Assembly: GCA_965263345.1 (NCBI GenBank)
Contig: CBDHHC010000016.1
Location: 212,861 to 276,860 of the forward strand
Direction of reading: 5' to 3'
DNA: 64,000 bases
DNA from: Methyloligellaceae bacterium
Lineage (GTDB): Bacteria; Pseudomonadota; Alphaproteobacteria; Rhizobiales; CBDHHC01
The position numbers were made by a program, and so were the translations under genes. Below, one piece after another: positions 11,288 to 50,150 of the stretch. The first letter of the stretch is position 1, and every line of letters begins with the position of its first letter. The notes under the pieces are model-generated. The model did no database searches, was not told the DNA's origin, and saw nothing but the letters and a program-made list of their open reading frames with translations.

Positions 11288-11292
11288 AAAAA

Positions 11293-16771: not shown

Positions 16772-17893
<1,122 letters not shown>

Positions 17894-35960: not shown

Positions 35961-37646
35961 TTATTCGTGAGCTATATAATCAACATACCCTGAACGAACC
36001 CAATCAGCCCAACTATTTAAATCGCCCTTTTCGCGAATATCTTCGAGAGAATGAACAAGGAGATGCAGGTTATGATCAAGTGCATGGTGCCCAACTTGAT
36101 TATATTGGAATTCCGCCCGAGCACTCTTCATCTTCCAGGGTCTCTTAAGAAAGGAGATATAAGCATTCCACTTGGCCCGGATATGCTGTTCTTTGGTTAA
36201 GTTTCCAAATTCATGAAGATGAGACAATTGCTTTAAATAGTCATCTTGAGTGACACAATCAATTGTAAAGCCAAGCCCAGAATAACGCCCTGTACCAGCT
36301 GTAATGCAAGGCTTACCAAAGCAAGCCAGTTCCATCCCTGAAGTCCCCCGAACAGTGACACCATAATCGGCAACCTCAAAAAGGGATAAGGTACAAATAT
36401 CACTATCAGCCTCAACAAGCTTAACATGCTTTGGCAATTCACCGATTTCACTGTCTATCATGACCTTCTCGGCATAATCACAGTTGATATTCTCATATGC
36501 TCTTTTCCAGACATTCGCAGGATGAACCTTAATCAACCAATTCAACTTATCATTCTGGCAGGCAGCTTTTACTGTCTCAATAAACCAGTGCCCATAATCA
36601 TCAAAAAGATCTTCTCCGTAAAACAGATTGGCATCCCAAAGAACATGAGAAAACACCACAGCAACCTTCTTATCAGGGCAAAGTCCATAAGCAGCGTTCA
36701 GCTCATCACGGTTGTAAGACTTGGTATTTTTCTGATTGCGAGCCTGCAAAAACCATTTACCAGAATAACGATGATCAAACACCTCTTGTAAATGTTTTTC
36801 TTGAACTTCAGTCCATTCTGCTTCAATGCATTTTTCAAGCGTTTCACATGCGACAGATGCAGGGTGCTCACGCCTCGTCGAGGACGTCAGTCTTTTAAAT
36901 ATTAAAGCATCATCCTGCCAGGGTTGGATCATCTGTATGACATCCGTTCCATTCCTGATTGCCATATCCACCAAAGGACCAAAATACGAATAATTTGCCT
37001 CTATAGTAAGCGCCAGATCTGCTGATTGCAGTTCAACCAGCTTTTGTGCTTTCAAAACATGCTCAAGAATTTGAGGTAACATGCCCTCTAAAAAACGAAG
37101 GACCTCGGGTCGATTAAAATCAACAGTGCCCTCAAATCGTAATCGTGAGAGCGTTGCAATAACCTGTGGGCCAATCCAACTTTCCTTAAAGCTCCAGTTC
37201 TTAACTATTTTTAGACTAAGTGGATCTCTTAAAAAATACTGCGCTGCGCTTTTGCAATATTGAATTTCAGCTTGATTTAACTTGTAATCATCTAAATAGA
37301 CAAACTGAGTGATATCAAAAGCCTTGAAATACACTTTACCAAGCTGCATGGAACGATCTTTAAGGACGACAACGATGGTCCAACCTTCCAGACGTAAAGC
37401 AGTCGCGATAAAAGAATAGAGCTTTAAACTATAGATCGAAGCATCATCAAGCGCGAAAACAAGAAGAGTTTTCTCGTCACGCTCTATAGCATAATCCCGC
37501 AAAAAACGTGTTTGGTCATAAGTCTCATGAATATCTTGACGAATATTATAAACATCATGGCGGTTTCGCCATAATTTTGCGAGCAATTGCGCAGGAACCG
37601 CTAGAGCAGGCACACTTCCCACCAGGCGTTTTAAACGGCGATGCAC
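35961..37646 (-). CDS. Putative capsule/LPS glycan biosynthesis protein (KpsC/KpsS-Capsule_synth-like transferase)
   Basis: 561 aa, last gene of the glycan cluster. Weak similarity pattern to Capsule_synth family (..VHPAN.., GKPCITAG..). Assignment tentative. Confidence 0.35.
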   Translation of the reverse strand: MHRRLKRLVGSVPALAVPAQLLAKLWRNRHDVYNIRQDIHETYDQTRFLRDYAIERDEKTLLVFALDDASIYSLKLYSFIATALRLEGWTIVVVLKDRSMQLGKVYFKAFDITQFVYLDDYKLNQAEIQYCKSAAQYFLRDPLSLKIVKNWSFKESWIGPQVIATLSRLRFEGTVDFNRPEVLRFLEGMLPQILEHVLKAQKLVELQSADLALTIEANYSYFGPLVDMAIRNGTDVIQMIQPWQDDALIFKRLTSSTRREHPASVACETLEKCIEAEWTEVQEKHLQEVFDHRYSGKWFLQARNQKNTKSYNRDELNAAYGLCPDKKVAVVFSHVLWDANLFYGEDLFDDYGHWFIETVKAACQNDKLNWLIKVHPANVWKRAYENINCDYAEKVMIDSEIGELPKHVKLVEADSDICTLSLFEVADYGVTVRGTSGMELACFGKPCITAGTGRYSGLGFTIDCVTQDDYLKQLSHLHEFGNLTKEQHIRAKWNAYISFLKRPWKMKSARAEFQYNQVGHHALDHNLHLLVHSLEDIREKGDLNSWADWVRSGYVDYIAHE

Positions 37647-38353
37647 GTCTTATCCTCCATAATACGTCGGCGCTCCATCAACCATTCTATATATTCAAGA
37701 TCAGCTTGAGTATCGATATCATGTGAATCAGTCTCAGACATTAGATAGGGCGCACAATTGTCTCCATATAGATCACCAGACCTTATCGTACCAGGTTTCA
37801 TGACCAGAACAGCAGGTCCATTCCGAGCATACAGCACAGGTTTATCCTGACGCCTCAAAACCTTTTTATATTCTGGCAGAAATGGCTCCAATCGATTATC
37901 TTTCATCGACATAACAGAAACAGGACTATACTGGTGGGGTACTTCCCTCACACTGACAACACTACTAACGCTATTGGAAAGGAATAACCTAATAGCCTCA
38001 TCGATATGCACAGCTTCTCTTAAAGGCGATGTGGGTTGCAAAAGAACAAGTGCTGTTAATTTATCGTAAGACTTTTCAAACCAATCGAGGACATGAGATA
38101 GGACCTCAAACATGGGGGTTAAATCACCAGCAAGATCTGTAGGACGTAAAAATGGAACTTCTGCACCACACTCCAGAGCAACATCTGCAATAGTCTGATC
38201 ATCCGTAGAAACAATTGTTCGATGAACATACTGGGACTGTAAAGCAGCCTTAATCGAATAAGAAATCAATGGTTGTCCTGCCAGAATCGCAAGATTTTTG
38301 CGTGGTATCCCCTTGGAACCACCTCTAGCAGGTATCACAGCCAAAACAGTCAT
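37631..38353 (-). CDS. CMP-nonulosonic-acid (acylneuraminate) cytidylyltransferase
   Basis: MTVLAVIPARGGSKGIPRKNL... canonical NeuA/LegF/PseF N-terminus. 240 aa short form. Confidence 0.8.
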   Translation of the reverse strand: MTVLAVIPARGGSKGIPRKNLAILAGQPLISYSIKAALQSQYVHRTIVSTDDQTIADVALECGAEVPFLRPTDLAGDLTPMFEVLSHVLDWFEKSYDKLTALVLLQPTSPLREAVHIDEAIRLFLSNSVSSVVSVREVPHQYSPVSVMSMKDNRLEPFLPEYKKVLRRQDKPVLYARNGPAVLVMKPGTIRSGDLYGDNCAPYLMSETDSHDIDTQADLEYIEWLMERRRIMEDKTCIAV

Positions 38354-38383
38354 GGAGTTTTTAATTTTCGGAGATTTTAAAGA

Positions 38384-39535
38384 TTAGTAAGTAATACATT
38401 TTTGTACGGAAACATTTTCTCTCGAAAGAATATCAGCAATACGCTCACCAGCTTTTCCATCCCCATAAATCGGCTCCATCTCATAATGTCCATGAGAAAG
38501 TTGATAAGAAATCGCATCACGGATCTGATCCTGATCATAGGGAACATCAATAACATTTTTGCCCCGTTCACGAGCCGTTTGACGACTACCAATATTAACA
38601 ACAGGTGTGCCAATAAACGCCCCTTCACGAATCCCACTGCTTGAATTACCAATCAAACAAGACGTGTGTTTCATCAAGGAGACATAAGTATCTATAGGAA
38701 GGTTTTTAAAAAAATGCATGCGATCCGCAAGCTTCTTCTCCCGCCACTTTCTCATACCTTTTGCAATATCATCTGAGCCGGCATCAGCATTCGGCCATAA
38801 AGCTATCACTGGAATATCCAGCTCCTTAACAGCCTGCAATGTCATCGTAATTTGATCTTCACTAGCTCCATACTCAGTCGTAACCGGATGCTGAGAAATC
38901 AAAACAAATGGTTCATGAATATTCAATCGATCACCAACGCCGACATTAAAAATGTCTTCACTAAGACTTTGTGAATTATAGCTAAGAATATCTGCAACCA
39001 AATCAATACGTGGGCAACCAACCATATGCACATGCTCAGGTATCTCCCCAAGCTTTATAATTCGCTCTTTCGCGTCCTGACATGCTGGAAAATGAATATG
39101 CGCAAACTTAGTTACCGCATGACGAATACTCTCATCAATTGTGCCACTCACTTCACCACCCATTGTATGAGCCACAGGAATATTCATATAAGCAGCTGCG
39201 AGTGTTGTCGCCATGGTTTCAAAACGATCACCAACAGTAAGTACAATATCGGGCTTGAGTTGATTAAAAATTGTAGGAAGTTCCATGAGCCCCAGCCCTG
39301 TCGATTTTGCCATGGTCGCGGGTGTCTCTCCCTCAATCAGCATATGCACTTCGGCCACTGGTTTAAAACCATCTTTCTCAATCAACCTGACAACAGCACC
39401 ATACCGATCCAACACAGCCGAGGCCCCAACAACAAGTTGAAGTTCAAGTGAAGGATGTTTCTCAATTGCATGCAGCGCTGACTTAATACTGCTATAATTA
39501 GCCCGTGAGCCTATAAAAACGCAAATTTTTCTCAC
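38384..39535 (-). CDS. UDP-N-acetylglucosamine 2-epimerase (hydrolysing), NeuC/LegG-like
   Basis: MRKICVFIGSRANYSSIK... and overall GT-B epimerase layout, 383 aa. Confidence 0.8.
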   Translation of the reverse strand: MRKICVFIGSRANYSSIKSALHAIEKHPSLELQLVVGASAVLDRYGAVVRLIEKDGFKPVAEVHMLIEGETPATMAKSTGLGLMELPTIFNQLKPDIVLTVGDRFETMATTLAAAYMNIPVAHTMGGEVSGTIDESIRHAVTKFAHIHFPACQDAKERIIKLGEIPEHVHMVGCPRIDLVADILSYNSQSLSEDIFNVGVGDRLNIHEPFVLISQHPVTTEYGASEDQITMTLQAVKELDIPVIALWPNADAGSDDIAKGMRKWREKKLADRMHFFKNLPIDTYVSLMKHTSCLIGNSSSGIREGAFIGTPVVNIGSRQTARERGKNVIDVPYDQDQIRDAISYQLSHGHYEMEPIYGDGKAGERIADILSRENVSVQKCITY

Positions 39536-40527
39536 GCTATATCATCCCAACTAATTTTATGGTTCTCAGGAATATCATTCACAATACGTTTGCCTATCAC
39601 ATTTGAATAATCTGCAGCGCGTATACCATCACCAGGTTTTTTAAAAGAAAGATCATTGAGAGTGATGACAGTACCAGAAACCAAAGGCCTCGAGGATATA
39701 ACACTTTTCTCAAAAATATTTTTCATATCCTGATAATGACTTAAATCGTCCTTATTAACCGGATGATTGAGTATTGTCTCCGCTTCACGGATACAGCCAC
39801 AAAAAACTTTAAATTCATCTGGCTCCATACTATGTTTTGCATCACTGCCATACATCAGCTTAGAAAAAGTAAAATGCTTTTCAACTGCAACGGCACCTAA
39901 CGTCACAGCAGATATACACGCTGTAATACCAAGTGTATGATCAGAATATCCAACAGGCTTTCCATATCTATTGGCCATATCCTGCATCACATTCAAACCC
40001 ACTTTTTCTGGTGGACAGGGATAAGCAGACGTACATTGCATAACAACAAGGTCATTGTTTTTTAACACCTCAACCGCCAGATCAACTTCACTCCAGCTGC
40101 TCATACCAGAAGAAAGATAAACTGGCTTTCCTGTATCCCTCACTTTTTCTAACAACGGTAGATTACTTACCTCACCAGAAGGTATTTTATAAACACTTGC
40201 CCCCACATCCTCAAGCAGATCAACAGCCTCAATCGCAAACGGAGAAGAAAGAAATTTAACCCCCTGCTGATTGCAATGCTGAGCTAACTCCCGCCACTGC
40301 TCAAGAGTAAAAGCGGTACGTCTAAAATACTCCAGCCTTGGCTCACCTTTGAAATAAGGTGGCATAGGAGCATCAGGCAATGTTTCCGCTTCAGCAATAT
40401 GGGTCTGAAACTTTACCACACTTGCACCACATAGGGCCGCAGCCTCAATAGCTTTCATCGCATTGCCAAATGATCCATCATGCACAGACCCAATTTCAGC
40501 AATAATCTCAACGGATGAGTGACTCAA
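39532..40527 (-). CDS. Nonulosonic acid synthase (NeuB/LegI family) with C-terminal SAF domain
   Basis: TIM-barrel NeuB motifs (KFQT, ..YSDHT.G), C-terminal SAF/antifreeze-like domain. 331 aa. Confidence 0.85.
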   Translation of the reverse strand: MSHSSVEIIAEIGSVHDGSFGNAMKAIEAAALCGASVVKFQTHIAEAETLPDAPMPPYFKGEPRLEYFRRTAFTLEQWRELAQHCNQQGVKFLSSPFAIEAVDLLEDVGASVYKIPSGEVSNLPLLEKVRDTGKPVYLSSGMSSWSEVDLAVEVLKNNDLVVMQCTSAYPCPPEKVGLNVMQDMANRYGKPVGYSDHTLGITACISAVTLGAVAVEKHFTFSKLMYGSDAKHSMEPDEFKVFCGCIREAETILNHPVNKDDLSHYQDMKNIFEKSVISSRPLVSGTVITLNDLSFKKPGDGIRAADYSNVIGKRIVNDIPENHKISWDDIA

Positions 40528-41378
40528 AGTTTTCCTTTCTTATGTAAAACATTTGGCAAAGTAGCATATCCAAATACCGTAATCTTACCACTGGGTTCAA
40601 AAACTCTTTCAAGTCGAATAACATCTAACCCAGCAGAATTTATCACATGAGCAAGGCCTTTAGGATCATATAAATGACAATGTAAGGCACCCAATATATT
40701 ATCATTGCTGGGTCTTAAACCAGTTGTAATTTTATCAGGCACCTCAATATAGATCGCACTGTTTTTCTGGTTCATTGCCGATGAAACCATCTTGAGGAAT
40801 GAGACAGGATCAGCAATATGTTCTAAAACCTTATTCAATGTTATAAGGCCAAATCCCTTAAGCGTATCCTGACCAAGAAACATATCTTCTATAACATCAA
40901 ACTGTTTTAAACCTCTAAGATGCTCTGCAGCAATAGGATCAGGTTCTAAAGCTGTACATTGAGGCTTTCCCTCAGCACGTTCTACAAACCTGGAAAGAAA
41001 AACACCTGTCCCAGCGCCAATATCCAATACAGACAAATCATCATCAGATCCAAACCAATATTCAACAAATTCAATAATACGTTGAACACGTTGTGCATTA
41101 TCAGATTTATGTGCTGGCAACCCCATAACAAACTGATATTTTTCGCCTATATTCGAATTTGCAAAATCCACCTCATAATAAGAGCTTCGCACAGCCTCAA
41201 GCTTTTCTTCAGATTGTAAAGGAAGTATATTCGTTGCAATTCCGCATGTCTGGCAGTCAATCCAGAAGCGCTCATAATCAGTTGCAGCTATCCCAACACT
41301 GCGTTCAAATCGGTCTGGTTCACAAATCTTCAGCAACTCAAGACTCTTAGTTCCCGAACAGATATTACATTTAAACAT
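40524..41378 (-). CDS. Class I SAM-dependent methyltransferase with N-terminal Zn-ribbon
   Basis: CNICSG...CQTCG ribbon, motif I LDIGAGTGVF. Confidence 0.7.
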   Translation of the reverse strand: MFKCNICSGTKSLELLKICEPDRFERSVGIAATDYERFWIDCQTCGIATNILPLQSEEKLEAVRSSYYEVDFANSNIGEKYQFVMGLPAHKSDNAQRVQRIIEFVEYWFGSDDDLSVLDIGAGTGVFLSRFVERAEGKPQCTALEPDPIAAEHLRGLKQFDVIEDMFLGQDTLKGFGLITLNKVLEHIADPVSFLKMVSSAMNQKNSAIYIEVPDKITTGLRPSNDNILGALHCHLYDPKGLAHVINSAGLDVIRLERVFEPSGKITVFGYATLPNVLHKKGKL

Positions 41379-41384
41379 GTATTT

Positions 41385-42833
41385 TTACGCTACTTTCATA
41401 TTCAAAATATTTCGCACGAATTTACCAGGCGCAATATATTCTGATAAAGATCTTACCAGCATAAAGCCAAGGGGCGCAGCTATAATCAATAACCCAATAG
41501 CCCTCCCCATTTCCGATACATCATAAATCCTTAACCAAACGTAGGCCCCTACAATTAAAAATATGCCAACTACTATCCAGTGGTCTTGGAAAGGAACATC
41601 TGCACGCACAAACCTCGCATACAACTGCACAAAAATCCTCATAACAAACATTTCACATATCAAAACCGAAAGAACCGCCACCATTCCAAAATAAGGAACG
41701 AACATCAACAGACATATGATGGCAAAAAGAGTAGAAAAAATACGAATGCCAGAATATGTATTTCCCTTATTTTGAGCAAATAAAACAGCCGTTGCTGGTT
41801 TACCTGCCTGTTGGATAAGCAAATAAATAATCAGGAAAGGTACCCAGTCAGCAGCAAAATTAAACTTCCCATTCGTGAGAAGTGAAATAATCTCACCACC
41901 AAAAAAGACAAAAATTAATCCGCAAATACTAAGAGCGATATACACAATATTCCATGCAACACGCAACTTACCAAAATCAGAACTATCATCCTTTGCCTCG
42001 CGCAAAGCATAAGGCCAGATCACCGTTGCCATAGCATTCGTTCCCTGCATCAATAGGCTATAATGCAACCGCGCATGACTATAGTTACCAAGCATAACAC
42101 TCCCGGCTGTATAGGCAATCGTACTACTCTCAACTGTGTTGCGAAGATTATCCAAGAGCGCCGCAAACCAGGCTCCAGGAGTCACAAAAACAATCCTCCG
42201 TATCCATTTCAGATCAGGAAGAGCCCAAAGTGATGGGCCAATAACAACAAGCGTAAGCAGTGTAAAAGCTAAAGTACCAAAACTATTCCCCAAAAATAGT
42301 GACGACCTGCCAAAAGAAAACAGATATAACGCCAGCAACACAGCAGAAAAACTGACTATAGCCTTCAAAAACACACCGGCCGCAATCCAGTTACTGCGTT
42401 TTTGGGCAATCAATATTGGACTTGTCACACCAAGAACTGTCCGTACAGGAATAGCGAAACACAATAACAAAACTTCAATCCCAGTGAAGGTCTTTAAAAG
42501 AGGAACAATCTTAGAAAAAATCTCCCATAAACTCCAAAGAACAAAAGCAGCAATAACACTTATAACCAGGCTCATTGAAACCATAGACGAAAGCAGAACA
42601 CGTTGATCTTTCTCTGACAAATCAGCATATTGCGCATACAAAACATACGCAGCCCCGGTCTCACAAAGCGCAACCATAAGTCCTTCGATGACAATCGCCA
42701 TCCCATAAACCCCATAATCCTCTGGCCCAAGAATTCGAGTTGCCAGGGGAATAAGAGCTAGACCTAAGATACATTGGGAAATATTGGCAGCAAGGTTCGT
42801 ACTGACTTGCCGACTGAAATGGTAGAATGACAC
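41385..42833 (-). CDS. Wzx-like polysaccharide flippase (MOP superfamily)
   Basis: 482 aa, ~12-14 TM, polysaccharide-biosynthesis-protein topology. Confidence 0.6.
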   Translation of the reverse strand: MSFYHFSRQVSTNLAANISQCILGLALIPLATRILGPEDYGVYGMAIVIEGLMVALCETGAAYVLYAQYADLSEKDQRVLLSSMVSMSLVISVIAAFVLWSLWEIFSKIVPLLKTFTGIEVLLLCFAIPVRTVLGVTSPILIAQKRSNWIAAGVFLKAIVSFSAVLLALYLFSFGRSSLFLGNSFGTLAFTLLTLVVIGPSLWALPDLKWIRRIVFVTPGAWFAALLDNLRNTVESSTIAYTAGSVMLGNYSHARLHYSLLMQGTNAMATVIWPYALREAKDDSSDFGKLRVAWNIVYIALSICGLIFVFFGGEIISLLTNGKFNFAADWVPFLIIYLLIQQAGKPATAVLFAQNKGNTYSGIRIFSTLFAIICLLMFVPYFGMVAVLSVLICEMFVMRIFVQLYARFVRADVPFQDHWIVVGIFLIVGAYVWLRIYDVSEMGRAIGLLIIAAPLGFMLVRSLSEYIAPGKFVRNILNMKVA

Positions 42834-42853
42834 AGATTTTAAATTGTTTTGAA

Positions 42854-43669
42854 TTAGTCTGACTTCACACCATTATAAATAAATGACATAGCCTCATTGG
42901 TTCTAACAAACTCACTAAACTGTAATTCGGGGTGCTTCTCCCTGAATTCATTCCAAGCCAGCTGCTCTCCCCTCTCCGGGTCTCCATGGAAGCAATACCA
43001 GTCATCAAAGACAATTACAGTACCAACTTGAAGAAAGTCCACAATCCATTCAAGAACAGGCACCGTAGATTTATAAAGATCACAATCAATATAAATCACA
43101 GCTGCTTTCATTGGCAGTAAATCATCACGAAGCTCAGGCGTGAGACTATCATCATAAAAACCTTTAATGGTTTTTAGCCGATCCTTAGGAATACCATGTT
43201 TAAGAGCACGTTTTATGAATCGTTCTTCCTGAAAAGCCAACTTACCTTTTTGCCAAATTTGCTGTTTATCAATTTCAGTAATTTCAGGTAAACCTTCAAA
43301 GGAATCAAACCCCACATAATGAAAATCAAACAGATATTTAAAATGGCTCCAGGCTTTCCGGATAGTATTCGCCTCGTTACAGCCAAACTCAAAATAATAC
43401 CCTGTAACAGGTCTGTTAATATGCAAAAAACGGGCAATACTCATAAAAACAAAACTGCGTTGGTCTTGTCCGAACTGATAATATTCTCGTCTAATCCATC
43501 GTCCTTTAGCGGTTAATAACCATAAAGGCAATACATCACGAAGCTTCTTTAGACCAGATATAAACGGAGTGGGCAGTGTATTCTTAAGATGTATACGTAA
43601 ACTGTCTGATAATGAATTCATGTGCTTTGTACACTTTTTATTTGATATATTGTTCTTCTGGAGTAACAC
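42854..43669 (-). CDS. TylF/MycF-like O-methyltransferase
   Basis: FDSFEGLP and ...IYIDCDLYKST...IVFDDW motifs. Alternative start ATG 43621 avoids overlap with upstream gene. Confidence 0.55.
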   Translation of the reverse strand: MLLQKNNISNKKCTKHMNSLSDSLRIHLKNTLPTPFISGLKKLRDVLPLWLLTAKGRWIRREYYQFGQDQRSFVFMSIARFLHINRPVTGYYFEFGCNEANTIRKAWSHFKYLFDFHYVGFDSFEGLPEITEIDKQQIWQKGKLAFQEERFIKRALKHGIPKDRLKTIKGFYDDSLTPELRDDLLPMKAAVIYIDCDLYKSTVPVLEWIVDFLQVGTVIVFDDWYCFHGDPERGEQLAWNEFREKHPELQFSEFVRTNEAMSFIYNGVKSD

Positions 43670-44942
43670 CAGAAAATCTATTCAAATTTTCTGAAAGAGT
43701 CTCAGGACAAGTGATAATTTTCTCATGCGAAGAAGTTTGTAAAAGCGCCTCTTCAAGAAAATCAATAAACCGATTACAGGCAGCCCTTGGCAAAAATTCC
43801 CGTTCATAAGTCAAACGAGCAGCTTCTGATATTCTTGCCGTTTCCAAGGCATTCTCAAAAGCAAAGCGCATATGAAAAGTAAACTCTTCAGCGGATGAGG
43901 CAAGATAACAATTTTCCCCTGAGACTAGTTCTGGATTACCTAATGCTGTATTGTCATGTGCTATAACAACACTCTCCATTGATAAAGCTGTAACTATCCG
44001 GCTTCGATTACCAACAGGAACTGAGATAGGCGCCAGAACTGCATGGCATTGATCCACCAAGGCCGTAAGATCATCCACAAACCCGAGAAATTTAAACTCT
44101 GGACGGGATTCTAGGTCACTTTTGACCCATTCCGGTAACTCTCTGGCTCCGGCAATGTAAATATCAAATCCACCATCACCCCATACGTTCAATAGTTTTG
44201 GATAAACTTTTTTCAATAAAAAATGGAATGCAGAACGTGACCCGAGCGCAGCGAGGGTACCAAACATAGCAAAACTAGGGCGTTCAAACTTCTTTTTACC
44301 AACCTCTCGTTTGATATCCGGCCAAGGATAAGACATATAAACCGACTTGGCACCCAACATATGAACTGAAGCCTCAGATGACTTTGAAGACACAATAACC
44401 TGTGATTGCCCATCAAGAACATCTTTATAATATCGCTTCCAGATCAACTGAGATAACAACGCACGTGGAACAGCTTGAACTTTACTTTTGTCAGCCGCCA
44501 TATCATAGAGGGCATGATAATAACATGTCTGATAAGTAAGATCCCCTAGCCAAATAACAAGAGACTCAAACCCCAACGCTTGAGCAACACCAGCTGCATT
44601 AATATCAAAACAAACAACCACATCTGGTTCAAAATTTCTCGCCTGTTCAATAATTTTTATATCAGGCAATTCTGGAACTATTTTTAATGACCGATATGAT
44701 GTGAAATGTGTTTTTGCGACAGTTTGATAAAGCACACGAAAACGCTCATCAGCACAAATAGCCCGGGCATAACACTCTATCTCTTCATCAGGATTTTCTC
44801 GAGGCGTATCAATGATAACATGAAGAACAGAATAACCAGCAGCCTTGATGGCATGAATATACCAATAAAAGAGTACACAACTCGCACCACGACTAGGATG
44901 CGGAATACCATGTGAAATAATTAAAATCTTTTGATGTTGCAT
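43638..44942 (-). CDS. Glycosyltransferase (GT-B, family-1-like)
   Basis: Start trimmed to ATG 44942 (MQHQKILIIS...), 5 nt after upstream stop. C-terminal region typical of GT1. Confidence 0.5.
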   Translation of the reverse strand: MQHQKILIISHGIPHPSRGASCVLFYWYIHAIKAAGYSVLHVIIDTPRENPDEEIECYARAICADERFRVLYQTVAKTHFTSYRSLKIVPELPDIKIIEQARNFEPDVVVCFDINAAGVAQALGFESLVIWLGDLTYQTCYYHALYDMAADKSKVQAVPRALLSQLIWKRYYKDVLDGQSQVIVSSKSSEASVHMLGAKSVYMSYPWPDIKREVGKKKFERPSFAMFGTLAALGSRSAFHFLLKKVYPKLLNVWGDGGFDIYIAGARELPEWVKSDLESRPEFKFLGFVDDLTALVDQCHAVLAPISVPVGNRSRIVTALSMESVVIAHDNTALGNPELVSGENCYLASSAEEFTFHMRFAFENALETARISEAARLTYEREFLPRAACNRFIDFLEEALLQTSSHEKIITCPETLSENLNRFSGVTPEEQYIK

Positions 44943-44946
44943 AATG

Positions 44947-45996
44947 CTAGATTGAAACGGCATGACCTGTGGCAATGGAATTCTTGAGAGCGGACATGAC
45001 TCTATGAACACGAATTGCGTCCCCAAAACCTGGTAAGTCCTCATCACTCCCTTGAATATTGCGTACAAACCCGGATGATATTCGTCCTATTGCCATCAAA
45101 CGTGTATCAGTTTCAGTTTTATCAGCAGGAGATTCTGGTTTAGGAATAACAATTTCTCTTCGCTCATTACCAGAAAAAGTTAAAGACTGTTCATTGAGTG
45201 TAAAAGGAAATTTATGACGATACGTTAAAATCCCTTTACGTCCGATCACTTCAATCTTCATCCCAGTGCCACCTGTTTGACAATTCGTTATTCTACAGGA
45301 AAAAGGGACACCGTTAGAAAGGTTCATTTGAGTAACAAGAAAATCCTCAGAAGTAACTTCTTGTGCCTCACCTTGAGCATCGGGTCTGTGTTTAAACATG
45401 ATAGAAGACGAGCCATAAATACGATTAATTTCTTGCCCTGTAAGCCACCAGATTAGATCCGCCACATGACTGAAAAAGGCCCCAATCACACCGCCTCCAG
45501 CCTGCTCATCATTCCGCCAGCTCCAGGGCAGATCTTTCTTTGCTCGTCCAGATGTCAACCAGGAAAAATCAATGGCATGAATATCACCAGTAATCTCCTG
45601 CTCAAGATGCTGTTTCATTATCTGGATACCAGGTTCAAAACGAAACTGAAAATTAACAGCAGCTTTACAACCATTCTCTTTTGCTTCATCCTGCATGACT
45701 TGAGCCTCACGCAGATTAAGCCCAAAGGGCTTCTCACAAAAGACATGCTTACCATGCCTTAAAACTTCAAGAACAATATCTTTCTGTTCCGCGGGAGGGA
45801 CTGCAACGGTGACCGCATCCGCATGTTTTAAGGCCTCTCGCCAGGAAGGAAGGTACCTAACATTTTCAGGAAGTTTAACCTTTCCACGTCCAGATCCAGA
45901 ATCTGCCGCAAAAAGCGCTTCAACTTCTGGAATCTCTGCAAGCACAGGCAAATGTGCTTGCACCCCAAATCCAGCTCCGATAACTGCAATTTTCAT
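44947..45996 (-). CDS. Gfo/Idh/MocA-family NAD(P)-dependent oxidoreductase
   Basis: MKIAVIGAGFG Rossmann start, EKP motif (VFCEKPFG). Confidence 0.85.
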   Translation of the reverse strand: MKIAVIGAGFGVQAHLPVLAEIPEVEALFAADSGSGRGKVKLPENVRYLPSWREALKHADAVTVAVPPAEQKDIVLEVLRHGKHVFCEKPFGLNLREAQVMQDEAKENGCKAAVNFQFRFEPGIQIMKQHLEQEITGDIHAIDFSWLTSGRAKKDLPWSWRNDEQAGGGVIGAFFSHVADLIWWLTGQEINRIYGSSSIMFKHRPDAQGEAQEVTSEDFLVTQMNLSNGVPFSCRITNCQTGGTGMKIEVIGRKGILTYRHKFPFTLNEQSLTFSGNERREIVIPKPESPADKTETDTRLMAIGRISSGFVRNIQGSDEDLPGFGDAIRVHRVMSALKNSIATGHAVSI

Positions 45997-46002
45997 AGAG
46001 TA

Positions 46003-47262
46003 TTAATCAAGCACACAAAGATCTGGTAACGGAATAACAATCTTTGAGGTCAAACCTTTGTCTCTCAGTTTTTTAACAATGGGCTCCCAATAATGCCATG
46101 AAAGCATCACAGCATATTCTGGTTGCTCCTCAAGCATAGCTTTTTCATCTATAACAGGAATATGTGCCCCAGGAAGAAACATACCAAGTTTTAGTGAAGT
46201 TGATTGCTCAGCAATATACTCCATACTTTCAGGATCGATCCTGCAATAATTAACAAGTGTTGCGGAACGACCTGGGCAACCAACACCCACAACTCGGTGC
46301 CCAGCCACTTTGGCATCAATCAACAACTTTTGCAGACGAACCTTCGATGTTCTCACACGGTTTGCAAAATGAGTATAAATATCTTGTGTATCAAGACCAA
46401 GCTGTTCTTCTTCAGCAAGTAATTTACCGACAGACTCATTAACGGGGTGATTTTTCCCTTTCATCGCATAAACACGAATTGACCCCCCATAATTCGATAT
46501 CCTGTCAATATCAACAACAGTAAAATCATAATAACTAAAGAGCTTGATGATAGATTGCACGGAATAATATTTTAAATGTTCATGATAGATAGAATCATAC
46601 TGAACCGTTTCCAACAAATCGACCAGATAGTGAGATTCTGTAACGAACAGCCCACCATCTTCTAGTAGACTCTCAACACCTCGGATCAAACTCCCAAGTT
46701 TGGAAACATGCGCAAACATATTTGCTGCGGTCACAATACGTGCCGCTCCATGCTCCGACTTAATGTCTTGTGCTAAATCCTCTGTGAAAAATTCCTGAAT
46801 AGTTCTGATACCATTCTCATTAGCAATTAAAGATATATTGGTTGGCTCGACACCAAGCACATCCATCCCGGCATCTTTGAAACCACTCAACAAGGTTCCG
46901 TCATTTGACCCAATATCAATTGCCAAGCCATCTTTAACATCAAAACGCTCCATAATCGTCGGACCTGTTGAGCGAAGGTTATTCACCAACGTAGATGTAA
47001 TACCGCTTCGATAAGGATAATCAGGGTAAAATAACTCCTCTGCCGGCACAGCATAATCAATCTGCACAAGATTACATCCTGAACAGCGAACGAGGTTCAA
47101 TGGATAAGTCCGCTCAGTCTCTTTCAGCTGATCTGGACGTAAAAGAGAATCGCAGGGTGCATGGTGCCCAAGACTGATGATAGGAAACAGATCCTTAGAA
47201 CCACAAATCTGACAGGTTTTAATGGACCCATCATGAAGATCATGATTTGGAATGATAGCCAT
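46003..47262 (-). CDS. Sugar C-methyltransferase (Zn-binding N-domain + SAM MT + C-methyltransferase C-domain; TylCIII/Coq-like family)
   Basis: Start trimmed to ATG 47262. CQICGS...CSGCNLVQ zinc ribbon, IDIGSNDGTLL motif I, C-terminal C-MT domain. Confidence 0.6.
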   Translation of the reverse strand: MAIIPNHDLHDGSIKTCQICGSKDLFPIISLGHHAPCDSLLRPDQLKETERTYPLNLVRCSGCNLVQIDYAVPAEELFYPDYPYRSGITSTLVNNLRSTGPTIMERFDVKDGLAIDIGSNDGTLLSGFKDAGMDVLGVEPTNISLIANENGIRTIQEFFTEDLAQDIKSEHGAARIVTAANMFAHVSKLGSLIRGVESLLEDGGLFVTESHYLVDLLETVQYDSIYHEHLKYYSVQSIIKLFSYYDFTVVDIDRISNYGGSIRVYAMKGKNHPVNESVGKLLAEEEQLGLDTQDIYTHFANRVRTSKVRLQKLLIDAKVAGHRVVGVGCPGRSATLVNYCRIDPESMEYIAEQSTSLKLGMFLPGAHIPVIDEKAMLEEQPEYAVMLSWHYWEPIVKKLRDKGLTSKIVIPLPDLCVLD

Positions 47263-47532
47263 TATTATATTATCTGATTGATGTTTTTTAAAAAGTAATA
47301 ATGCAAAAGATGCATATGATATATGATGCCAGAAAGCCTTAAAGCTACCGCAGTGCGGGTGAATAAACCGTTCAACCGACACCAAAATTCATCCTCGGTA
47401 ACTAGCACCACAAAAAGATAAATGCAAGTATATATAAAGTTTTAAGTGAGTATCTTGTGGACGAATATTTGCTTATAAAATTAAAAAAGCAAAAATAAAT
47501 AACATGAGAGAACAAATGTCGAATTTTAATTC

Positions 47533-49389
47533 TTAAATATAATTATGGCTATACTTTTTAAGAGCTTTATGATGAAGAAACCATTTTATTAACACATAAA
47601 CCCGAAAAGCCTCATTTATCCCTGAAGGGCTGATCATATGATGATGGTTGGCTATATTTTTAAGCTCATGAGGCTCAAATAAACCGCTTTCCAGTGCTTC
47701 AGGTGAATTTAAAAAGTCATATACCTTACGCCCATAGACGCCAGGGAGATATGTGATCGCAGGATTTGGAGACCAACGTTTGGGGGTGTCAATCAGATGA
47801 TCTGCAACATATCGCTTTGCTACCGATTTAAGAATGAATTTTGTATATCCTCCTCTAATTCTTAAATCATCAGGAAGCTGTAACGCCGCTCTCAAAATAC
47901 TTTGCATGACAAAAGGCGCTCGTATCTCTACCCCTTCATGAGCTGTTAAGCCCTCTATACGACCAAAATTTGCCCCCGGCTGCACACTCATCAGATGAAC
48001 ATATAACGCGCTCTGTAAATAAGACTGGCTATTATCAAAAGCCTTTTCAAACAGTCTTTTCACAGCCTGGTAAGTTATATCTCTCTCATCTTGCGGACTA
48101 TCACAATAGATACTGTTTATATATGTATTAATACATTCTTTCTGGTTTAATGCCTCAGAAGTCTTGGCAAAAAATGGATATCCGGCAAAAACTTCATCAG
48201 CCCCTTCACCTCCAAGCACAACTTTCAAACCATGTGTTTTTGCTGTTTTGGCAATAATTCTACGCGCCAAGATATCATGCATTGGATAAGGCTCAGGCAT
48301 ATGAATAATAGCATCATCAAGCTGTACCAAATGTTCTTCATGACTAATAATAATTTTGGTATGTTCTGTTTTAAACTGTTTTGCAATACTATCAGAATAG
48401 TGAAACTCATTTGTTTCAACTCTCCCCATCTTTCCAATATCACCAGGCAAACTCGCAATATCCTCACAGGTTAACCCTTCATACCCATATGAAAATGTTG
48501 GAATACTTCTTAAGCCTCGTTGATACATTCCACTCAACAAAACAGTACTGTCCACTCCACCAGATAAAAATAATCCGACATTTGAAACATCGCCACATAA
48601 ACAAGCCTCTATCGCATCAAATAATGTCTCTTCTATAATATCAATGGATTGGCTATCATGAAAATTTGTGGTCACATTATTAAACTCTGGTTCCCAATAG
48701 CATTCCTGCGAAATACCGCCAGAGCAATCAATCATCATGTAATGGGCATGAGGAAGTTTTTTAATATCACGAAATAAAGTACTATCACCATAAGAAAACG
48801 CGCCAGTCATATTATAATGATATAGAGTTGTTTCATTAAGCGATGTGTCAGTAGCACCAAGGGGATAAAGAGCTTGAGGAAGAGAAGCAAAGAAAAAAGT
48901 TTGATCTATCTGACTATAAAATAATGGCTTTTCACCAAGGCGATCTCTGGCGAGCAAAATCGTTTTTCTTTTTTTATCATAAACCCCAAACGCAAACATA
49001 CCGTCCAGTTTATTCAAAAATACATTAGGATCATCTCTACCCCATATATCGTACGCCTTGATTAAAACTTCCGTGTCACTTTGTGTTCGAAATTCATATC
49101 CATACCCTAAAAGTTGATTTTTAAGAGATTTATAATTATAGAGCGCACCACTATAAGTAATGACAAGCCCCAACATTTCGTCAGCCATCGGCTGATCAGA
49201 CTGAGAACTACTATCATAAATCCGTAGAATACGATGTCCAAGAAAAACATTCTGCTCTGTATAAATCCCACTCCCATCCGGCCCTCTTGGAAAAAGAGTA
49301 TCAACAGCATGCTCGAAGGCTTTTTGATGAGAAAGAGAACTGGCAATATCCTGTCCAGCTAAATCAATACACCCAACAATCCCACACAT
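47533..49389 (-). CDS. Asparagine-synthase-like glutamine amidotransferase (AsnB/PseA/WbpS-type)
   Basis: Start trimmed to MCGIVG (Ntn Cys2). SGGVDS PP-loop. 619 aa. Confidence 0.85.
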   Translation of the reverse strand: MCGIVGCIDLAGQDIASSLSHQKAFEHAVDTLFPRGPDGSGIYTEQNVFLGHRILRIYDSSSQSDQPMADEMLGLVITYSGALYNYKSLKNQLLGYGYEFRTQSDTEVLIKAYDIWGRDDPNVFLNKLDGMFAFGVYDKKRKTILLARDRLGEKPLFYSQIDQTFFFASLPQALYPLGATDTSLNETTLYHYNMTGAFSYGDSTLFRDIKKLPHAHYMMIDCSGGISQECYWEPEFNNVTTNFHDSQSIDIIEETLFDAIEACLCGDVSNVGLFLSGGVDSTVLLSGMYQRGLRSIPTFSYGYEGLTCEDIASLPGDIGKMGRVETNEFHYSDSIAKQFKTEHTKIIISHEEHLVQLDDAIIHMPEPYPMHDILARRIIAKTAKTHGLKVVLGGEGADEVFAGYPFFAKTSEALNQKECINTYINSIYCDSPQDERDITYQAVKRLFEKAFDNSQSYLQSALYVHLMSVQPGANFGRIEGLTAHEGVEIRAPFVMQSILRAALQLPDDLRIRGGYTKFILKSVAKRYVADHLIDTPKRWSPNPAITYLPGVYGRKVYDFLNSPEALESGLFEPHELKNIANHHHMISPSGINEAFRVYVLIKWFLHHKALKKYSHNYI

Positions 49390-49589
49390 AAACAACAGCC
49401 CCAATTCGCTCGAAATAGCTAATGAGATCTTAAATTTTAGCTCATTCTATGTCTTTAGGGAAAAGTTGGGCATTTCACACGAAAAAAACCAGATAAAACG
49501 TGAGTTTTTTACTTCAAGAAAAGATGTTAATTTGATAACATGTAACTGTTTTAAATTTAATAAACTCAATGATTATTTGAAAAAAAACA

Positions 49590-50150
49590 ATGTTAAAATT
49601 ATTCATATTATCCTTAGGATTTGCAAGCACACTTTTCTTTAACGCACCAAGCTTTGCTGTGGGTTTAACAACACCTGATCAAGAAGTAACTGTTGAAATT
49701 TCTGGTTGGATTAAAAGAACTTGTGGTTTAAAAAACCTTCCTACAAAAATTGAACTTGGGAATTTAGAAACCAAGAAAAATCAACGTATTGAATTTACAG
49801 TTAATTGCAATGCTCCATTTTCTTATGGAATTTCTTCAAATGAAGGGGGGCTAAAATATGTCAATGAAAGTAAAGCCTCGAATTTAAAAACGACCACAAT
49901 GATTCCATATCATCTGGATGTTACGATCCCTATGGATAGGGGGATAATTAAAAATTCTTGCGCAAGCAAAACACTTCCTAAAGCTATTGGTGAGCCAGCC
50001 CAGTGCAAGTTTTCAGATTCAGGCCAAGATGTTTCTATAGACAAAACGGCTACAATGGATATTTCCTGGAATTTAAAGCAACTTAAGAATGGTCCCGCCT
50101 CTGGGATATATAAAGATCGCTTAACAATTTGGGTTGGTTTAAAACCTTAA
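49590..50150 (+). CDS. SCPU-domain (Csu-type) fimbrial subunit-like secreted protein
   Basis: Signal peptide, Cys pair, C-terminal GIYKDRLTIWVGL resembling spore-coat-U/Csu pilin terminal strand. Confidence 0.5.
   Translation: MLKLFILSLGFASTLFFNAPSFAVGLTTPDQEVTVEISGWIKRTCGLKNLPTKIELGNLETKKNQRIEFTVNCNAPFSYGISSNEGGLKYVNESKASNLKTTTMIPYHLDVTIPMDRGIIKNSCASKTLPKAIGEPAQCKFSDSGQDVSIDKTATMDISWNLKQLKNGPASGIYKDRLTIWVGLKP

What the first reader, a model, noticed from the sequence alone, without database searches (positions are those of the whole stretch)
35961..49404. Eleven-gene nonulosonic-acid glycan cluster with amidotransferase and three unrelated methyltransferases
Seen in sequence: one uninterrupted minus-strand array with tiny gaps and overlaps.

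Genes in array order, from the promoter end:
- AsnB-like amidotransferase
- Zn-ribbon sugar C-methyltransferase
- Gfo/Idh/MocA oxidoreductase
- GT-B glycosyltransferase
- TylF-like O-methyltransferase
- Wzx flippase
- Zn-ribbon class-I methyltransferase
- NeuB-like synthase with SAF domain
- hydrolysing UDP-GlcNAc 2-epimerase (NeuC/LegG-like)
- CMP-NulO cytidylyltransferase
- Kps-like transferase

Established knowledge: the NeuB/NeuC/NeuA triad defines sialic- or legionaminic-type nonulosonic acid (NulO) synthesis. AsnB-like PseA/WbpS enzymes install acetamidino groups. TylCIII-type enzymes C-methylate sugars.

Inference: this likely builds a highly decorated (methylated and amidated) NulO-containing surface glycan. 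That is unusual for a low-GC Rhizobiales-like genome and likely horizontally acquired. Which NulO is made cannot be told from the sequence. No PseB/PseC or LegB/LegC-type dehydratase or aminotransferase lies inside the cluster, which argues for Neu5Ac-type, or the early steps are elsewhere.
Basis: partly seen in the sequence, partly recalled or inferred. Interest (0 to 1): 0.7.

Follow-up and report, generated by a model that had tools for sequence, protein, structure and literature searches.

The report
Sialic-acid-type surface glycan gene cluster
This is a real gene cluster for a methylated surface sugar chain containing a sialic-acid-like sugar; it is a shortened copy of a cassette shared by many environmental bacteria, and its most interesting part is an unstudied enzyme family that probably attaches the acidic sugar.

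Summary
Eleven intact minus-strand ORFs fill 35961-49404, and ten of the eleven domain calls are confirmed.

Ten genes, from the C-methyltransferase to the Kps-like gene, are collinear with clusters in an Azonexus MAG and a marine Spirochaetaceae MAG (38-78% aa identity). Partial versions occur in Afifella, Flammeovirgaceae and Planctomycetia.

The core NeuB-NeuC-CMP-synthetase-"Kps-like" block lies upstream on the same strand in 31 of 41 informative loci from many phyla. The Kps-like protein belongs to a large uncharacterised family. Its predicted fold is closest to the retaining beta-Kdo transferase KpsC, and it carries an HP motif and a [Q/H]xxxD motif. It is most likely the transferase for the nonulosonic acid (NulO).

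A DegT-type aminotransferase is absent from the window and from 45 of 48 related loci. That favours a three-enzyme Neu5Ac-type route, but legionaminic acid is not excluded.

The amidotransferase is an orphan: its best homologue is 34% identical, a 270-bp gap separates it from the array, and it is not the acetamidino-forming type. Its role in the glycan is unproven.

The window copy lacks the polymerase, the initiating transferase and the extra glycosyltransferases found in relatives. Base composition gives no sign of recent transfer.

Overall this is a new member of a known kind of cluster.

The parts
47533..49404 (-). Orphan AsnB-type glutamine amidotransferase. The probable start is M6 at 49389, which makes Cys2 the nucleophile. 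Whether it belongs to the glycan pathway is uncertain.
   Evidence: Asn_synthase 164 bits plus GATase_6/7. TIGR01536 scores 326 bits, above its cut-off of 267, and there is no TIGR03573 hit. Best homologues among 5.8 billion proteins are only 31-35% identical. A 270-bp gap separates it from the next gene.
46003..47385 (-). NDP-sugar 3-C-methyltransferase with an N-terminal Zn-binding domain. The probable start is M42 at 47262, giving 419 aa.
   Evidence: Methyltransf_13, Methyltransf_23 and Methyltransf_14. PDB 4rv9 (D-mycarose 3-C-methyltransferase) matches at 263 bits; KijD1 and TcaB9 match at 209-223 bits. It is 74% identical to the Azonexus orthologue.
44947..45996 (-). Gfo/Idh/MocA NAD(P) oxidoreductase paired with the C-methyltransferase. 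Inferred to be a sugar keto-reductase or dehydrogenase.
   Evidence: GFO_IDH_MocA N- and C-terminal domains. It sits beside the C-methyltransferase in 6 related loci.
43638..45068 (-). GT-B (GT4-like) glycosyltransferase. The probable start is at about 44942-44963.
   Evidence: Glyco_trans_1_4 at 43.5 bits. It is 52% identical to the Azonexus orthologue, with the alignment starting at 44933.
42854..43669 (-). TylF/CalS11-like sugar O-methyltransferase. The probable start is M17 at 43621.
   Evidence: TylF at 39 bits, above its cut-off of 23. Weak PDB hits to CalS11 (TDP-rhamnose 3'-O-methyltransferase) and NovP. It is 72-78% identical to orthologues in other phyla.
41385..42833 (-). Wzx-type flippase for a lipid-linked oligosaccharide.
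   Evidence: Polysacc_synt at 55 bits and Polysacc_synt_3. Orthologues occupy the same position in 17 loci.
40524..41378 (-). Class-I SAM methyltransferase with a conserved 4-Cys Zn ribbon. It overlaps NeuB by 4 bp, suggesting translational coupling.
   Evidence: Methyltransf_23 at 60 bits. The CxxC...CxxC motif is conserved in orthologues. It lies directly upstream of NeuB, on the same strand, in L001-L004 and L012.
39532..40527 (-). Nonulosonic acid synthase (NeuB family with a SAF domain), belonging to a distinct subfamily.
   Evidence: NeuB at 254 bits plus SAF. TIGR03569 scores 346 bits, below its cut-off of 400; the PseI model scores 236 bits. The catalytic Glu and His residues are kept, but the Arg314 equivalent is Lys here and in all 119 close homologues.
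38384..39535 (-). Hydrolysing UDP-sugar 2-epimerase of the NeuC/LegG/GNE type.
   Evidence: TIGR03568 scores 418 bits, above its cut-off of 236. PDB hits: human GNE epimerase domain 266 bits, hydrolysing diNAcBac 2-epimerase (5xvs) 232 bits. It is 30% identical to E. coli K1 NeuC.
37631..38353 (-). CMP-nonulosonic acid synthetase (cytidylyltransferase).
   Evidence: CTP_transf_3 at 92 bits. The best PDB match is 6ifd, a CMP-N-acetylneuraminate synthetase, at 131 bits.
35961..37646 (-). 'KpsL', a member of a large uncharacterised family with a KpsC-like fold. It is the candidate CMP-NulO glycosyltransferase. Motifs: H334-V-L-W-D338 (the QxxxD equivalent), H375-P376, and T435-S-G-M-E439.

Best explanation
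The locus encodes synthesis and lipid-linked assembly of a short, methylated glycan unit that contains a nonulosonic acid (NulO). It is a trimmed derivative of a widespread Wzx/Wzy-type O-antigen or exopolysaccharide cassette.

NulO module (domains and synteny shown; chemistry inferred):
- NeuC-like hydrolysing 2-epimerase converts UDP-GlcNAc to ManNAc.
- NeuB-like synthase condenses ManNAc with PEP to give a Neu5Ac-type NulO.
- The cytidylyltransferase makes the CMP-NulO.
- The KpsC-fold 'KpsL' enzyme transfers the NulO to the growing glycan. By analogy with KpsC and WbbB, this would use Asp338 as nucleophile and His375-Pro376 for CMP binding.
- The Zn-ribbon methyltransferase, translationally coupled to NeuB, probably modifies the NulO or its acceptor.

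Branched-sugar module:
- The TylC3-type 3-C-methyltransferase plus the Gfo/Idh/MocA oxidoreductase make a 3-C-methyl deoxyhexose from an NDP-4-keto-6-deoxyhexose.
- In this genome that precursor must be supplied from outside the window.
- The adjacent GT-B enzyme transfers this sugar, and the TylF-like enzyme O-methylates a sugar.

Export: Wzx flips the finished unit.

The upstream AsnB-type enzyme may amidate a carboxylate on the glycan, but this is the weakest link. Which polymer or protein finally receives the unit cannot be told from the window.
For: - Domain assignments for all eleven proteins.
- Ten genes are collinear with Azonexus L050 at 38-78% aa identity and with the Spirochaetaceae loci L001 and L052.
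- NeuB, NeuC and the CMP-synthetase lie upstream of KpsL on the same strand in 31 of 41 loci with enough flank. They are strictly contiguous in 23.
- hhalign to E. coli KpsC aligns the HP motif, the QxxxD-equivalent motif and the SGxE..GK motif. Within the family the motif is [Q/H]VLWD with an invariant Asp.
- Literature precedent: PF05159 proteins next to NulO modules are predicted NulO transferases (PMC4487303). KpsS1 is an experimentally shown retaining Pse transferase, GT118 (cited in PMC12887879).
- The C-methyltransferase matches solved sugar 3-C-methyltransferases at E = 6e-77. In Azonexus the same array is preceded by ManC, a reductase/epimerase and GDP-mannose 4,6-dehydratase.
- Relatives continue downstream with GT4, GT2, Wzy_C and AsnB-type genes. 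That identifies the cassette as a Wzx/Wzy-type heteropolysaccharide locus.
- A DegT aminotransferase is absent from the window and from 45 of 48 loci.
Against: - The NulO type is not established. The NeuB-like protein is about equally distant from N. meningitidis NeuB (155 bits) and C. jejuni PseI (151 bits). It misses the TIGR03569 equivalog cut-off. It has Lys where NeuB has Arg314.
- The epimerase is closer to the hydrolysing diNAcBac 2-epimerase (5xvs) and to human GNE than to E. coli K1 NeuC. JGI labels many homologues 'N,N'-diacetyllegionaminate synthase'.
- The window holds no Wzy, no initiating phosphoglycosyltransferase, no 4,6-dehydratase and only two glycosyltransferases. A complete pathway needs genes elsewhere, or the locus may be partly defunct.
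- KpsL scores below the Pfam threshold. Its family profile has no sequence-level hit in the PDB.
- No experiment exists for any member of this KpsL family.
Confidence: 0.7

Rival explanations
1. The NulO is legionaminic acid or an epimer, not a Neu5Ac-type sugar. The NeuC-like enzyme would be a LegG acting on UDP-diNAcBac made by genes elsewhere in the genome. Everything else stays as in the best explanation.
For: - The epimerase scores 232 bits to the hydrolysing diNAcBac 2-epimerase 5xvs, against 159 bits (30% identity) to E. coli K1 NeuC.
- The synthase falls below the NeuB equivalog cut-off and carries the R314K change.
- JGI names many close homologues 'N,N'-diacetyllegionaminate synthase'.
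- PF05159-type transferases have been linked bioinformatically to 8-epilegionaminic and acinetaminic acid modules (PMC4487303).
Against: - No DegT-type aminotransferase and no RffG-like SDR dehydratase lie in the 64-kb window.
- The aminotransferase appears in only 3 of 48 related loci, each spanning about 21 kb.
- The Azonexus cluster, read from 10 kb upstream of NeuB to 10 kb beyond KpsL, has none.
- The epimerase scores higher to human GNE, whose substrate is UDP-GlcNAc (266 bits).
Confidence: 0.25
2. The locus is a decaying or non-autonomous remnant. It lost the polymerase, three or more glycosyltransferases and the precursor genes present in relatives, and it no longer produces a glycan.
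For: The window lacks orthologues of GT4a, MTb, GT4b, Wzy and Gmd found in the collinear Azonexus and Spirochaetaceae clusters. After KpsL there is a 580-bp gap and then unrelated plus-strand genes.
Against: All eleven ORFs are intact and full length relative to orthologues, with coupled junctions. No pseudogene fragments of the missing genes were found by tblastn. GC3 is fully ameliorated, which implies long residence under selection.
Confidence: 0.1
3. The glycan unit is used for protein O-glycosylation, for example of the adjacent chaperone-usher (SCPU-type) pilus subunits or other envelope proteins. In this reading it is not used for LPS or capsule.
For: There are only two glycosyltransferases, a flippase and no polymerase, which fits an oligosaccharide rather than a polymer. 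SCPU, usher and PapD genes lie immediately upstream on the same strand at 50168-54675.
Against: No oligosaccharyltransferase (PglL or Wzy_C type) is in the window. Related clusters carry Wzy_C and many glycosyltransferases and look like polysaccharide loci. The pilus genes are not conserved next to the module in any of the 48 loci.
Confidence: 0.1

Closest known systems
Wzx/Wzy-dependent O-antigen and capsule loci containing sialic, legionaminic or pseudaminic acid, such as the E. coli Neu5Ac O-antigens and the Acinetobacter baumannii K loci with a KpsS1/Gtr59 gene next to the NulO module (PMC4487303)
   Same: A NulO synthesis module sits directly beside a PF05159-like transferase and a Wzx flippase. 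Additional sugar-modifying genes lie in one co-directional array.
   Different: - The window copy has no Wzy, no initiating transferase and no export genes.
- The transferase is only remotely related to a KpsS1-like protein from an A. baumannii Pse locus (hhalign probability 19%).
- The NulO module is NeuB + NeuC + cytidylyltransferase only. It is neither a Pse nor an Acinetobacter Leg module.
Retaining beta-Kdo glycosyltransferases KpsC (GT107) and WbbB (GT99), plus the related KpsS1 (GT118) and KrkA (GT140)
   Different: - There is no significant sequence match to any solved member, and Pfam scores below threshold.
- The protein is about 240 residues longer than one KpsC module.
- The window protein has His in place of the carboxylate-binding Gln.
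- Its genomic partner is a NeuC-type NulO pathway, not Kdo or Pse.
E. coli K1 / Neisseria meningitidis NeuB-NeuC-NeuA sialic acid pathway
   Same: The same three enzyme families are present. The catalytic Glu and His residues of NeuB are conserved.
   Different: - Identity to the K1 enzymes is only 30-34%.
- The Arg314 equivalent is Lys.
- There is no NeuD, NeuS or NeuE and no ABC-transporter capsule genes.
- The cytidylyltransferase lacks the C-terminal esterase domain of K1 NeuA: 240 aa against 418 aa.
TylC3 / TcaB9 / KijD1 NDP-hexose 3-C-methyltransferases of antibiotic deoxysugar pathways
   Same: The architecture is the same, with a Zn domain, a SAM domain and a C-terminal domain. Similarity is strong (E = 6e-77).
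   Different: It sits in a surface-glycan cluster. In the Azonexus relative it follows GDP-mannose pathway genes, which suggests a GDP-linked rather than a TDP-linked substrate. No 4,6-dehydratase lies in the window.

Membership tests
NeuB-family nonulosonic acid synthase (PF03102 + SAF) | NeuB TIM-barrel domain and C-terminal SAF/AFP-like domain above the Pfam thresholds | tested here: met
   NeuB scores 254 bits (cut-off 22) and SAF scores 35 bits (cut-off 21).
NeuB-family nonulosonic acid synthase (PF03102 + SAF) | Catalytic and metal-binding residues of N. meningitidis NeuB: E25, E134, E234, H215, H236 | tested here: met
   They align to E11, E119, E216, H197 and H218. The residue list comes from PMC8208679 and from established knowledge.
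N-acetylneuraminate synthase proper (NeuB/NnaB equivalog, TIGR03569) | Score above the equivalog cut-off, and Arg314 contacting the N-acetyl group | tested here: not met
   The score is 346 bits against a cut-off of 399.65. The Arg314 equivalent is Lys (FKKPGDG) here and in all 119 close homologues.
NeuB vs LegI vs PseI clade assignment | Phylogenetic placement with experimentally characterised references | tested here: inconclusive
   - The PseI model scores lower than the NeuB model (236 against 346 bits).
- PDB scores to NmNeuB (155 bits) and CjPseI (151 bits) are about equal.
- Identity to E. coli K1 NeuB is 32%.
- No validated LegI sequence could be obtained.
Hydrolysing UDP-sugar 2-epimerase (NeuC/NnaA, TIGR03568) | Score above the equivalog cut-off | tested here: met
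   The score is 418 bits against a cut-off of 235.9. The non-hydrolysing WecB model scores only 78 bits.
Legionaminic / pseudaminic acid pathway | A DegT-type 4-aminotransferase and a 4,6-dehydratase accompanying the synthase | tested here: not met
   phmmer with E. coli WecE and RffG seeds found no hit in the 64-kb window. The aminotransferase appeared in only 3 of 48 related loci. Genes elsewhere in the genome cannot be excluded.
Retaining ulosonic-acid glycosyltransferases (KpsC GT107 / WbbB GT99 / KpsS1 GT118 / KrkA GT140) | Modified GT-B fold resembling KpsC or WbbB | tested here: met
Retaining ulosonic-acid glycosyltransferases (KpsC GT107 / WbbB GT99 / KpsS1 GT118 / KrkA GT140) | [quoted passage not shown] | tested here: met
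   H375-P376 are invariant in alignment A1. They align with the HP of E. coli KpsC.
Retaining ulosonic-acid glycosyltransferases (KpsC GT107 / WbbB GT99 / KpsS1 GT118 / KrkA GT140) | QxxxD motif, with Gln binding the carboxylate and Asp acting as nucleophile (PMC10148158, PMC12887879) | tested here: inconclusive
   The Asp (D338) is invariant and aligns with the KpsC Asp. The first position is Q in about half of the close homologues, but it is H in the window protein and in most GTDB loci.
Retaining ulosonic-acid glycosyltransferases (KpsC GT107 / WbbB GT99 / KpsS1 GT118 / KrkA GT140) | Sequence-level membership (Pfam PF05159 above threshold, or a significant match to a characterised member) | tested here: not met
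   - PF05159 scores 16.4 bits against a cut-off of 20.
- The family profile finds nothing in PDB sequences.
- hhalign to E. coli KpsC gives 57% probability.
- hhalign to a KpsS1-like protein gives 19%.
Retaining ulosonic-acid glycosyltransferases (KpsC GT107 / WbbB GT99 / KpsS1 GT118 / KrkA GT140) | Covalent Asp-sugar intermediate and retention of anomeric configuration | not testable with these tools
   This needs enzyme assays, adduct mass spectrometry and NMR of the product.
NDP-hexose 3-C-methyltransferase (TylC3/TcaB9/KijD1) | Zn-binding N-domain, SAM domain and C-terminal domain, with close similarity to solved members | tested here: met
   PF08421, PF13489 and PF08484 all hit. PDB 4rv9 matches at E = 6e-77.
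NDP-hexose 3-C-methyltransferase (TylC3/TcaB9/KijD1) | A supply of NDP-4-keto-6-deoxyhexose (a 4,6-dehydratase) in the same locus | tested here: not met
   No RffG-like protein is in the window. The dehydratase is present upstream of the collinear Azonexus cluster.
AsnB-type (class II) glutamine amidotransferase | N-terminal Cys nucleophile, GATase domain and Asn_synthase domain | tested here: met
   The sequence reads MCGIVG from M6. The source's own gene call, P0245, is 618 aa, which agrees with that start. GATase_6/7 and Asn_synthase hit. TIGR01536 scores 326 bits against a cut-off of 267.
N-acetyl-sugar amidotransferase that forms acetamidino groups (WbpG/PseA type, TIGR03573) | Match to the PP-loop amidotransferase family, usually with HisH/HisF-like partners | tested here: not met
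   No such NCBIfam hit at E <= 0.01. No HisH/HisF-like gene was found among the window ORFs that were scanned; about half of the listed ORFs were scanned.
Complete Wzx/Wzy-dependent polysaccharide locus | Wzx together with a Wzy polymerase or ligase and an initiating phosphoglycosyltransferase | tested here: not met
   Wzx is present. The window has no WecA-like protein and no Wzy orthologue. Both Wzy_C and extra glycosyltransferases are present in relatives.

The most novel reading that the evidence does not exclude
The 561-aa 'KpsL' protein would represent a new glycosyltransferase family within the retaining Kdo-transferase clan, defined by a KpsC-like fold, an HP motif and a [Q/H]xxxD nucleophile motif. 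Its natural donor would be a CMP-activated sialic- or legionaminic-type NulO, which carries an equatorial C5 substituent. If the enzyme keeps the double-displacement mechanism, it would make beta-linked NulO glycosides, a linkage essentially unknown for sialic acids. This would contradict the recent suggestion that such enzymes cannot readily evolve specificity for sialic acids (PMC12887879). The family is large (565 clusters at 50% identity with E <= 1e-30) and is spread over many bacterial phyla.
Probability: 0.3. Interest if true: 0.6.

Novelty: new member of a known kind. Interest (0 to 1): 0.35.

Why it matters
NulO-decorated surface glycans are well known in pathogens and are increasingly detected in environmental bacteria. 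The enzymes that attach the NulO are the least understood step. This locus links a large, unnamed protein family to NeuB/NeuC-type pathways in many phyla, by synteny in 31 of 41 informative loci. It also shows that the family has the fold and the motifs of the retaining Kdo transferases. That gives a concrete, testable candidate for a new NulO transferase family. It also identifies cultured carriers (Afifella, Haematospirillum, Bradyrhizobium, Rhodoplanes) in which the glycan chemistry could be determined. The cluster itself is an ordinary variation on a known theme.

Tried and rejected
- A genome-contig scan with the single KpsL protein found no relative. An exact look-up of its encoding contig failed, and cluster look-ups gave no names. 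The source organism is therefore unidentified beyond 'alphaproteobacterium with CcrM'.
- The KpsL family profile found nothing among PDB sequences. Only fold comparison and hhalign linked it to KpsC.
- The Tannerella forsythia Pse/Leg transferases were checked and rejected as relatives. They are TagB-like (PMC5420450).
- I tried to obtain a validated LegI reference for a NeuB/LegI/PseI tree. The plasmid tblastn hits included an A. baumannii locus that proved to be a Pse module. The Azospirillum, Halorussus and Rhodobacteraceae clusters make unknown NulO types. No clean reference was found, so no tree was built.
- The Rhizobium sp. WL3 plasmid carries a NeuB of this subfamily (60% identity), but in a different, ABC-transporter-type cluster.
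- The promoter and terminator scan gave counts at or below shuffled expectation and was uninformative.
- The Gfo/Idh/MocA gene was considered as a NulO C7/C8 epimerisation enzyme, by analogy with EpaB and AciE. This is disfavoured: those enzymes are SDR or aldo-keto reductases, and the Gfo gene co-varies with the C-methyltransferase, not with the NulO genes.
- GC3 shows no compositional anomaly. RSCU distance is 0.705, within the range of the null splits (maximum 0.724).

Full report
**Observation.** Only short shadow ORFs lie on the other strand.
- Most junctions are tight. MT23/NeuB and NeuB/NeuC overlap by 4 bp. Several other pairs are separated by 6-30 bp.
- Alignment with orthologues and with the database gene call for the amidotransferase (618 aa) moves four start codons inward.
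- This removes an apparent 122-bp overlap between the oxidoreductase and the glycosyltransferase.
- It also exposes a 270-bp gap between the amidotransferase (stop at 47533) and the C-methyltransferase (start at 47262). The array is therefore ten tightly packed genes plus one upstream gene that may be transcribed separately.

**Domain assignments.** Pfam and NCBIfam scans confirm ten of the eleven labels above curated thresholds. These are the AsnB-type amidotransferase, a Methyltransf_13/23/14 C-methyltransferase, Gfo/Idh/MocA, Glyco_trans_1_4, TylF, Polysacc_synt (Wzx), Methyltransf_23, NeuB+SAF, NeuC_NnaA and CTP_transf_3.
- The C-methyltransferase is a close relative of solved sugar 3-C-methyltransferases (4rv9 at 263 bits; KijD1 and TcaB9 at 209-223 bits).
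- The TylF-like protein weakly resembles CalS11 and NovP, which are sugar O-methyltransferases.
- The four-Cys ribbon of the class-I methyltransferase is conserved in orthologues.
- The last protein, here called KpsL, has only a sub-threshold Capsule_synth hit (16.4 bits).

**Context.** The window is chromosomal and alphaproteobacterial. It holds a CcrM-type methyltransferase, SMC, MutY, EF-G and RNase P RNA.
- The flanks are unrelated to the cluster. Downstream lie a glyoxalase and a LysE-type exporter. Upstream lies an SCPU/usher/PapD pilus operon.
- Apart from one GT2 at 7755-8714, no other glycan gene was found among the ORFs scanned, about half of those listed.
- GC3 of the cluster (0.325) equals that of the flanks (0.334; p = 0.82). 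Codon-usage distance is within the null range.

**Comparative genomics.**
- KpsL has more than 1500 homologues of about 570 aa in the 5.8-billion-protein database, nearly all unnamed. A profile search of 1.84 billion representatives finds 565 clusters at E <= 1e-30.
- A profile-guided scan of GTDB species genomes returned 48 loci. They come from Spirochaetota, Bacteroidota, Planctomycetota, Verrucomicrobiota, Actinomycetota, Gemmatimonadota, CPR and several proteobacterial classes. Among them are Bradyrhizobium (six loci), Rhodopseudomonas, Rhodoplanes, Afifella and Haematospirillum.
- tblastn of the eleven window proteins shows that NeuB, NeuC and the cytidylyltransferase lie upstream of KpsL on the same strand in 31 of 41 loci with enough flank. 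They are strictly contiguous in 23. Most remaining loci carry them nearby in another arrangement.
- The whole ten-gene order is conserved in an Azonexus MAG and in a marine Spirochaetaceae lineage at 38-78% identity. The order is C-methyltransferase, Gfo, GT, TylF, Wzx, MT23, NeuB, NeuC, cytidylyltransferase, KpsL. It is nearly complete in Afifella, Flammeovirgaceae and Planctomycetia.
- In those relatives the cluster is larger. Upstream it has ManC, a reductase/epimerase and GDP-mannose 4,6-dehydratase (Azonexus), or epimerases plus UDP-glucose dehydrogenase (Spirochaetaceae). Downstream it has GT4, a methyltransferase, GT2, GT4, Wzy_C-type proteins and an AsnB-type amidotransferase.
- The window has none of these and no pseudogene traces of them. 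The window locus is thus a trimmed version of a widely shared Wzx/Wzy-type heteropolysaccharide cassette.

**The Kps-like protein.**
- An AlphaFold model built on 24 homologues is confident (pLDDT 86.5, pTM 0.87).
- hhalign of the family against E. coli K1 KpsC (E = 1e-4) aligns three elements. KVHPAN aligns with the KpsC HP motif. SHVLWDAN aligns with GQVEDDAS, the QxxxD nucleophile motif. GTSGMELACFGKP aligns with SLSGFEALLHGKH.
- Across the family the motif is [Q/H]VLWD with an invariant Asp. Q occurs in about half of the close homologues, and H occurs in the window protein.
- The literature defines retaining Kdo-like GTs by exactly these elements (PMC10148158, PMC12887879). KpsS1 is reported as a retaining pseudaminic acid transferase, GT118. 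PF05159 proteins next to NulO modules were predicted to be NulO transferases in 2015 (PMC4487303).
- KpsL is nevertheless only remotely related to a KpsS1-like protein from an A. baumannii Pse locus (hhalign probability 19%). Its profile has no sequence-level match in the PDB.
- I conclude that KpsL is the NulO transferase of the cluster and belongs to an uncharacterised branch of this clan.

**Which NulO.**
- The synthase keeps the catalytic Glu and His residues of N. meningitidis NeuB. It has Lys instead of Arg314, as do all 119 close homologues.
- It scores better to the NeuB model than to the PseI model, but below the equivalog cut-off. It is about equally distant from solved NeuB and PseI.
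- The epimerase is closer to human GNE (266 bits) and to the hydrolysing diNAcBac 2-epimerase 5xvs (232 bits) than to E. coli K1 NeuC (30% identity).
- Sequence similarity therefore does not decide between the Neu and Leg types, and I could not obtain a validated LegI reference.
- Gene content is more telling. A DegT-type aminotransferase is obligatory for Leg and Pse, by established pathway knowledge. It is absent from the 64-kb window and from 45 of 48 related loci.
- I favour a three-enzyme Neu5Ac-type route (about 55%) over legionaminic acid (about 25-30%).

**The amidotransferase.**
- It is a genuine AsnB-type enzyme with an N-terminal Cys and both domains.
- Its best homologues are only 31-35% identical and are NAGGN-amidotransferase-like.
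- It is not the orthologue of the AsnB-type genes that recur in 28 of 48 related loci.
- By established knowledge, not tested here, AsnB-type enzymes amidate carboxylates, and acetamidino groups are made by the WbpG/PseA family. No match to that family was found.
- Its participation in the glycan rests on adjacency alone.

**Sub-modules.**
- The C-methyltransferase and the Gfo oxidoreductase are an adjacent pair in six loci. In Azonexus they follow GDP-mannose dehydratase genes. This suggests a 3-C-methyl-6-deoxyhexose, whose keto-sugar precursor must come from elsewhere in this genome.
- The GT, TylF and Wzx genes travel together.
- The Zn-ribbon methyltransferase travels with NeuB.

**Verdict.** This is a new member of a known kind of locus. 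The amidation claim is unsupported, the claim of taxonomic unusualness is wrong, and horizontal spread is supported only by synteny. The most valuable lead is the KpsL family as a candidate new NulO transferase family.

Noticed in passing
window 47533-49404 (-): The AsnB-type amidotransferase has no homologue above 35% identity among 5.8 billion proteins apart from its own record. The nearest relatives are N-acetylglutaminylglutamine amidotransferases, but no ngg-like partner gene lies nearby.
   Followed up: partly
window 39532-40527 (-), residue K297 in the FKKPGDG motif: The whole NeuB subfamily (the window protein plus all 119 close homologues) has Lys where N. meningitidis NeuB has the essential Arg314. 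PDB entries 4ipj and 4ipi appear to be the R314K and R314A variants of that enzyme.
   Followed up: partly
window 50168-54675 (-), with 56027-57196 (-): A chaperone-usher pilus operon lies immediately upstream of the glycan cluster on the same strand. It comprises an SCPU-domain protein, a 930-aa usher and a PapD-like chaperone. A LuxR/GerE-type regulator lies further upstream.
   Followed up: no
window 11289-11682 (-): Bacterial RNase P RNA, class A, at 330 bits. It overlaps ORFs listed mechanically at 11297-12118 (+), which are therefore probably not genes.
   Followed up: no
window 10178-11287 (+): A T4 RnlA-family RNA ligase-like protein (43 bits, below cut-off) sits next to the RNase P RNA gene.
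   Followed up: no
window 16787-17893 (+): A CcrM-type adenine DNA methyltransferase (618 bits). It marks the genome as alphaproteobacterial. MutY, SMC and EF-G lie nearby.
   Followed up: no
window 4718-7057 and 49590-50150: Four ORFs of 186-277 aa have no Pfam family. Three of them lie near a lone GT2 glycosyltransferase at 7755-8714.
   Followed up: no
L054 (Rhizobium sp. WL3 plasmid NZ_CP042825.1) 8149-13998: Four consecutive 'hypothetical' proteins of 450-513 aa lie directly upstream of a NeuB of the same subfamily. One has a Capsule_synth hit. The cluster is ABC-transporter-type and also holds WbuX/Y/Z acetamidino genes. This may be a tandem set of ulosonic-acid transferases.
   Followed up: partly
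L002 18347-20548 (Azonexus MAG): A 733-aa fusion of an LPG_synthase_TM domain and a Wzy_C (O-antigen ligase/polymerase) domain lies at the end of the collinear cluster.
   Followed up: no
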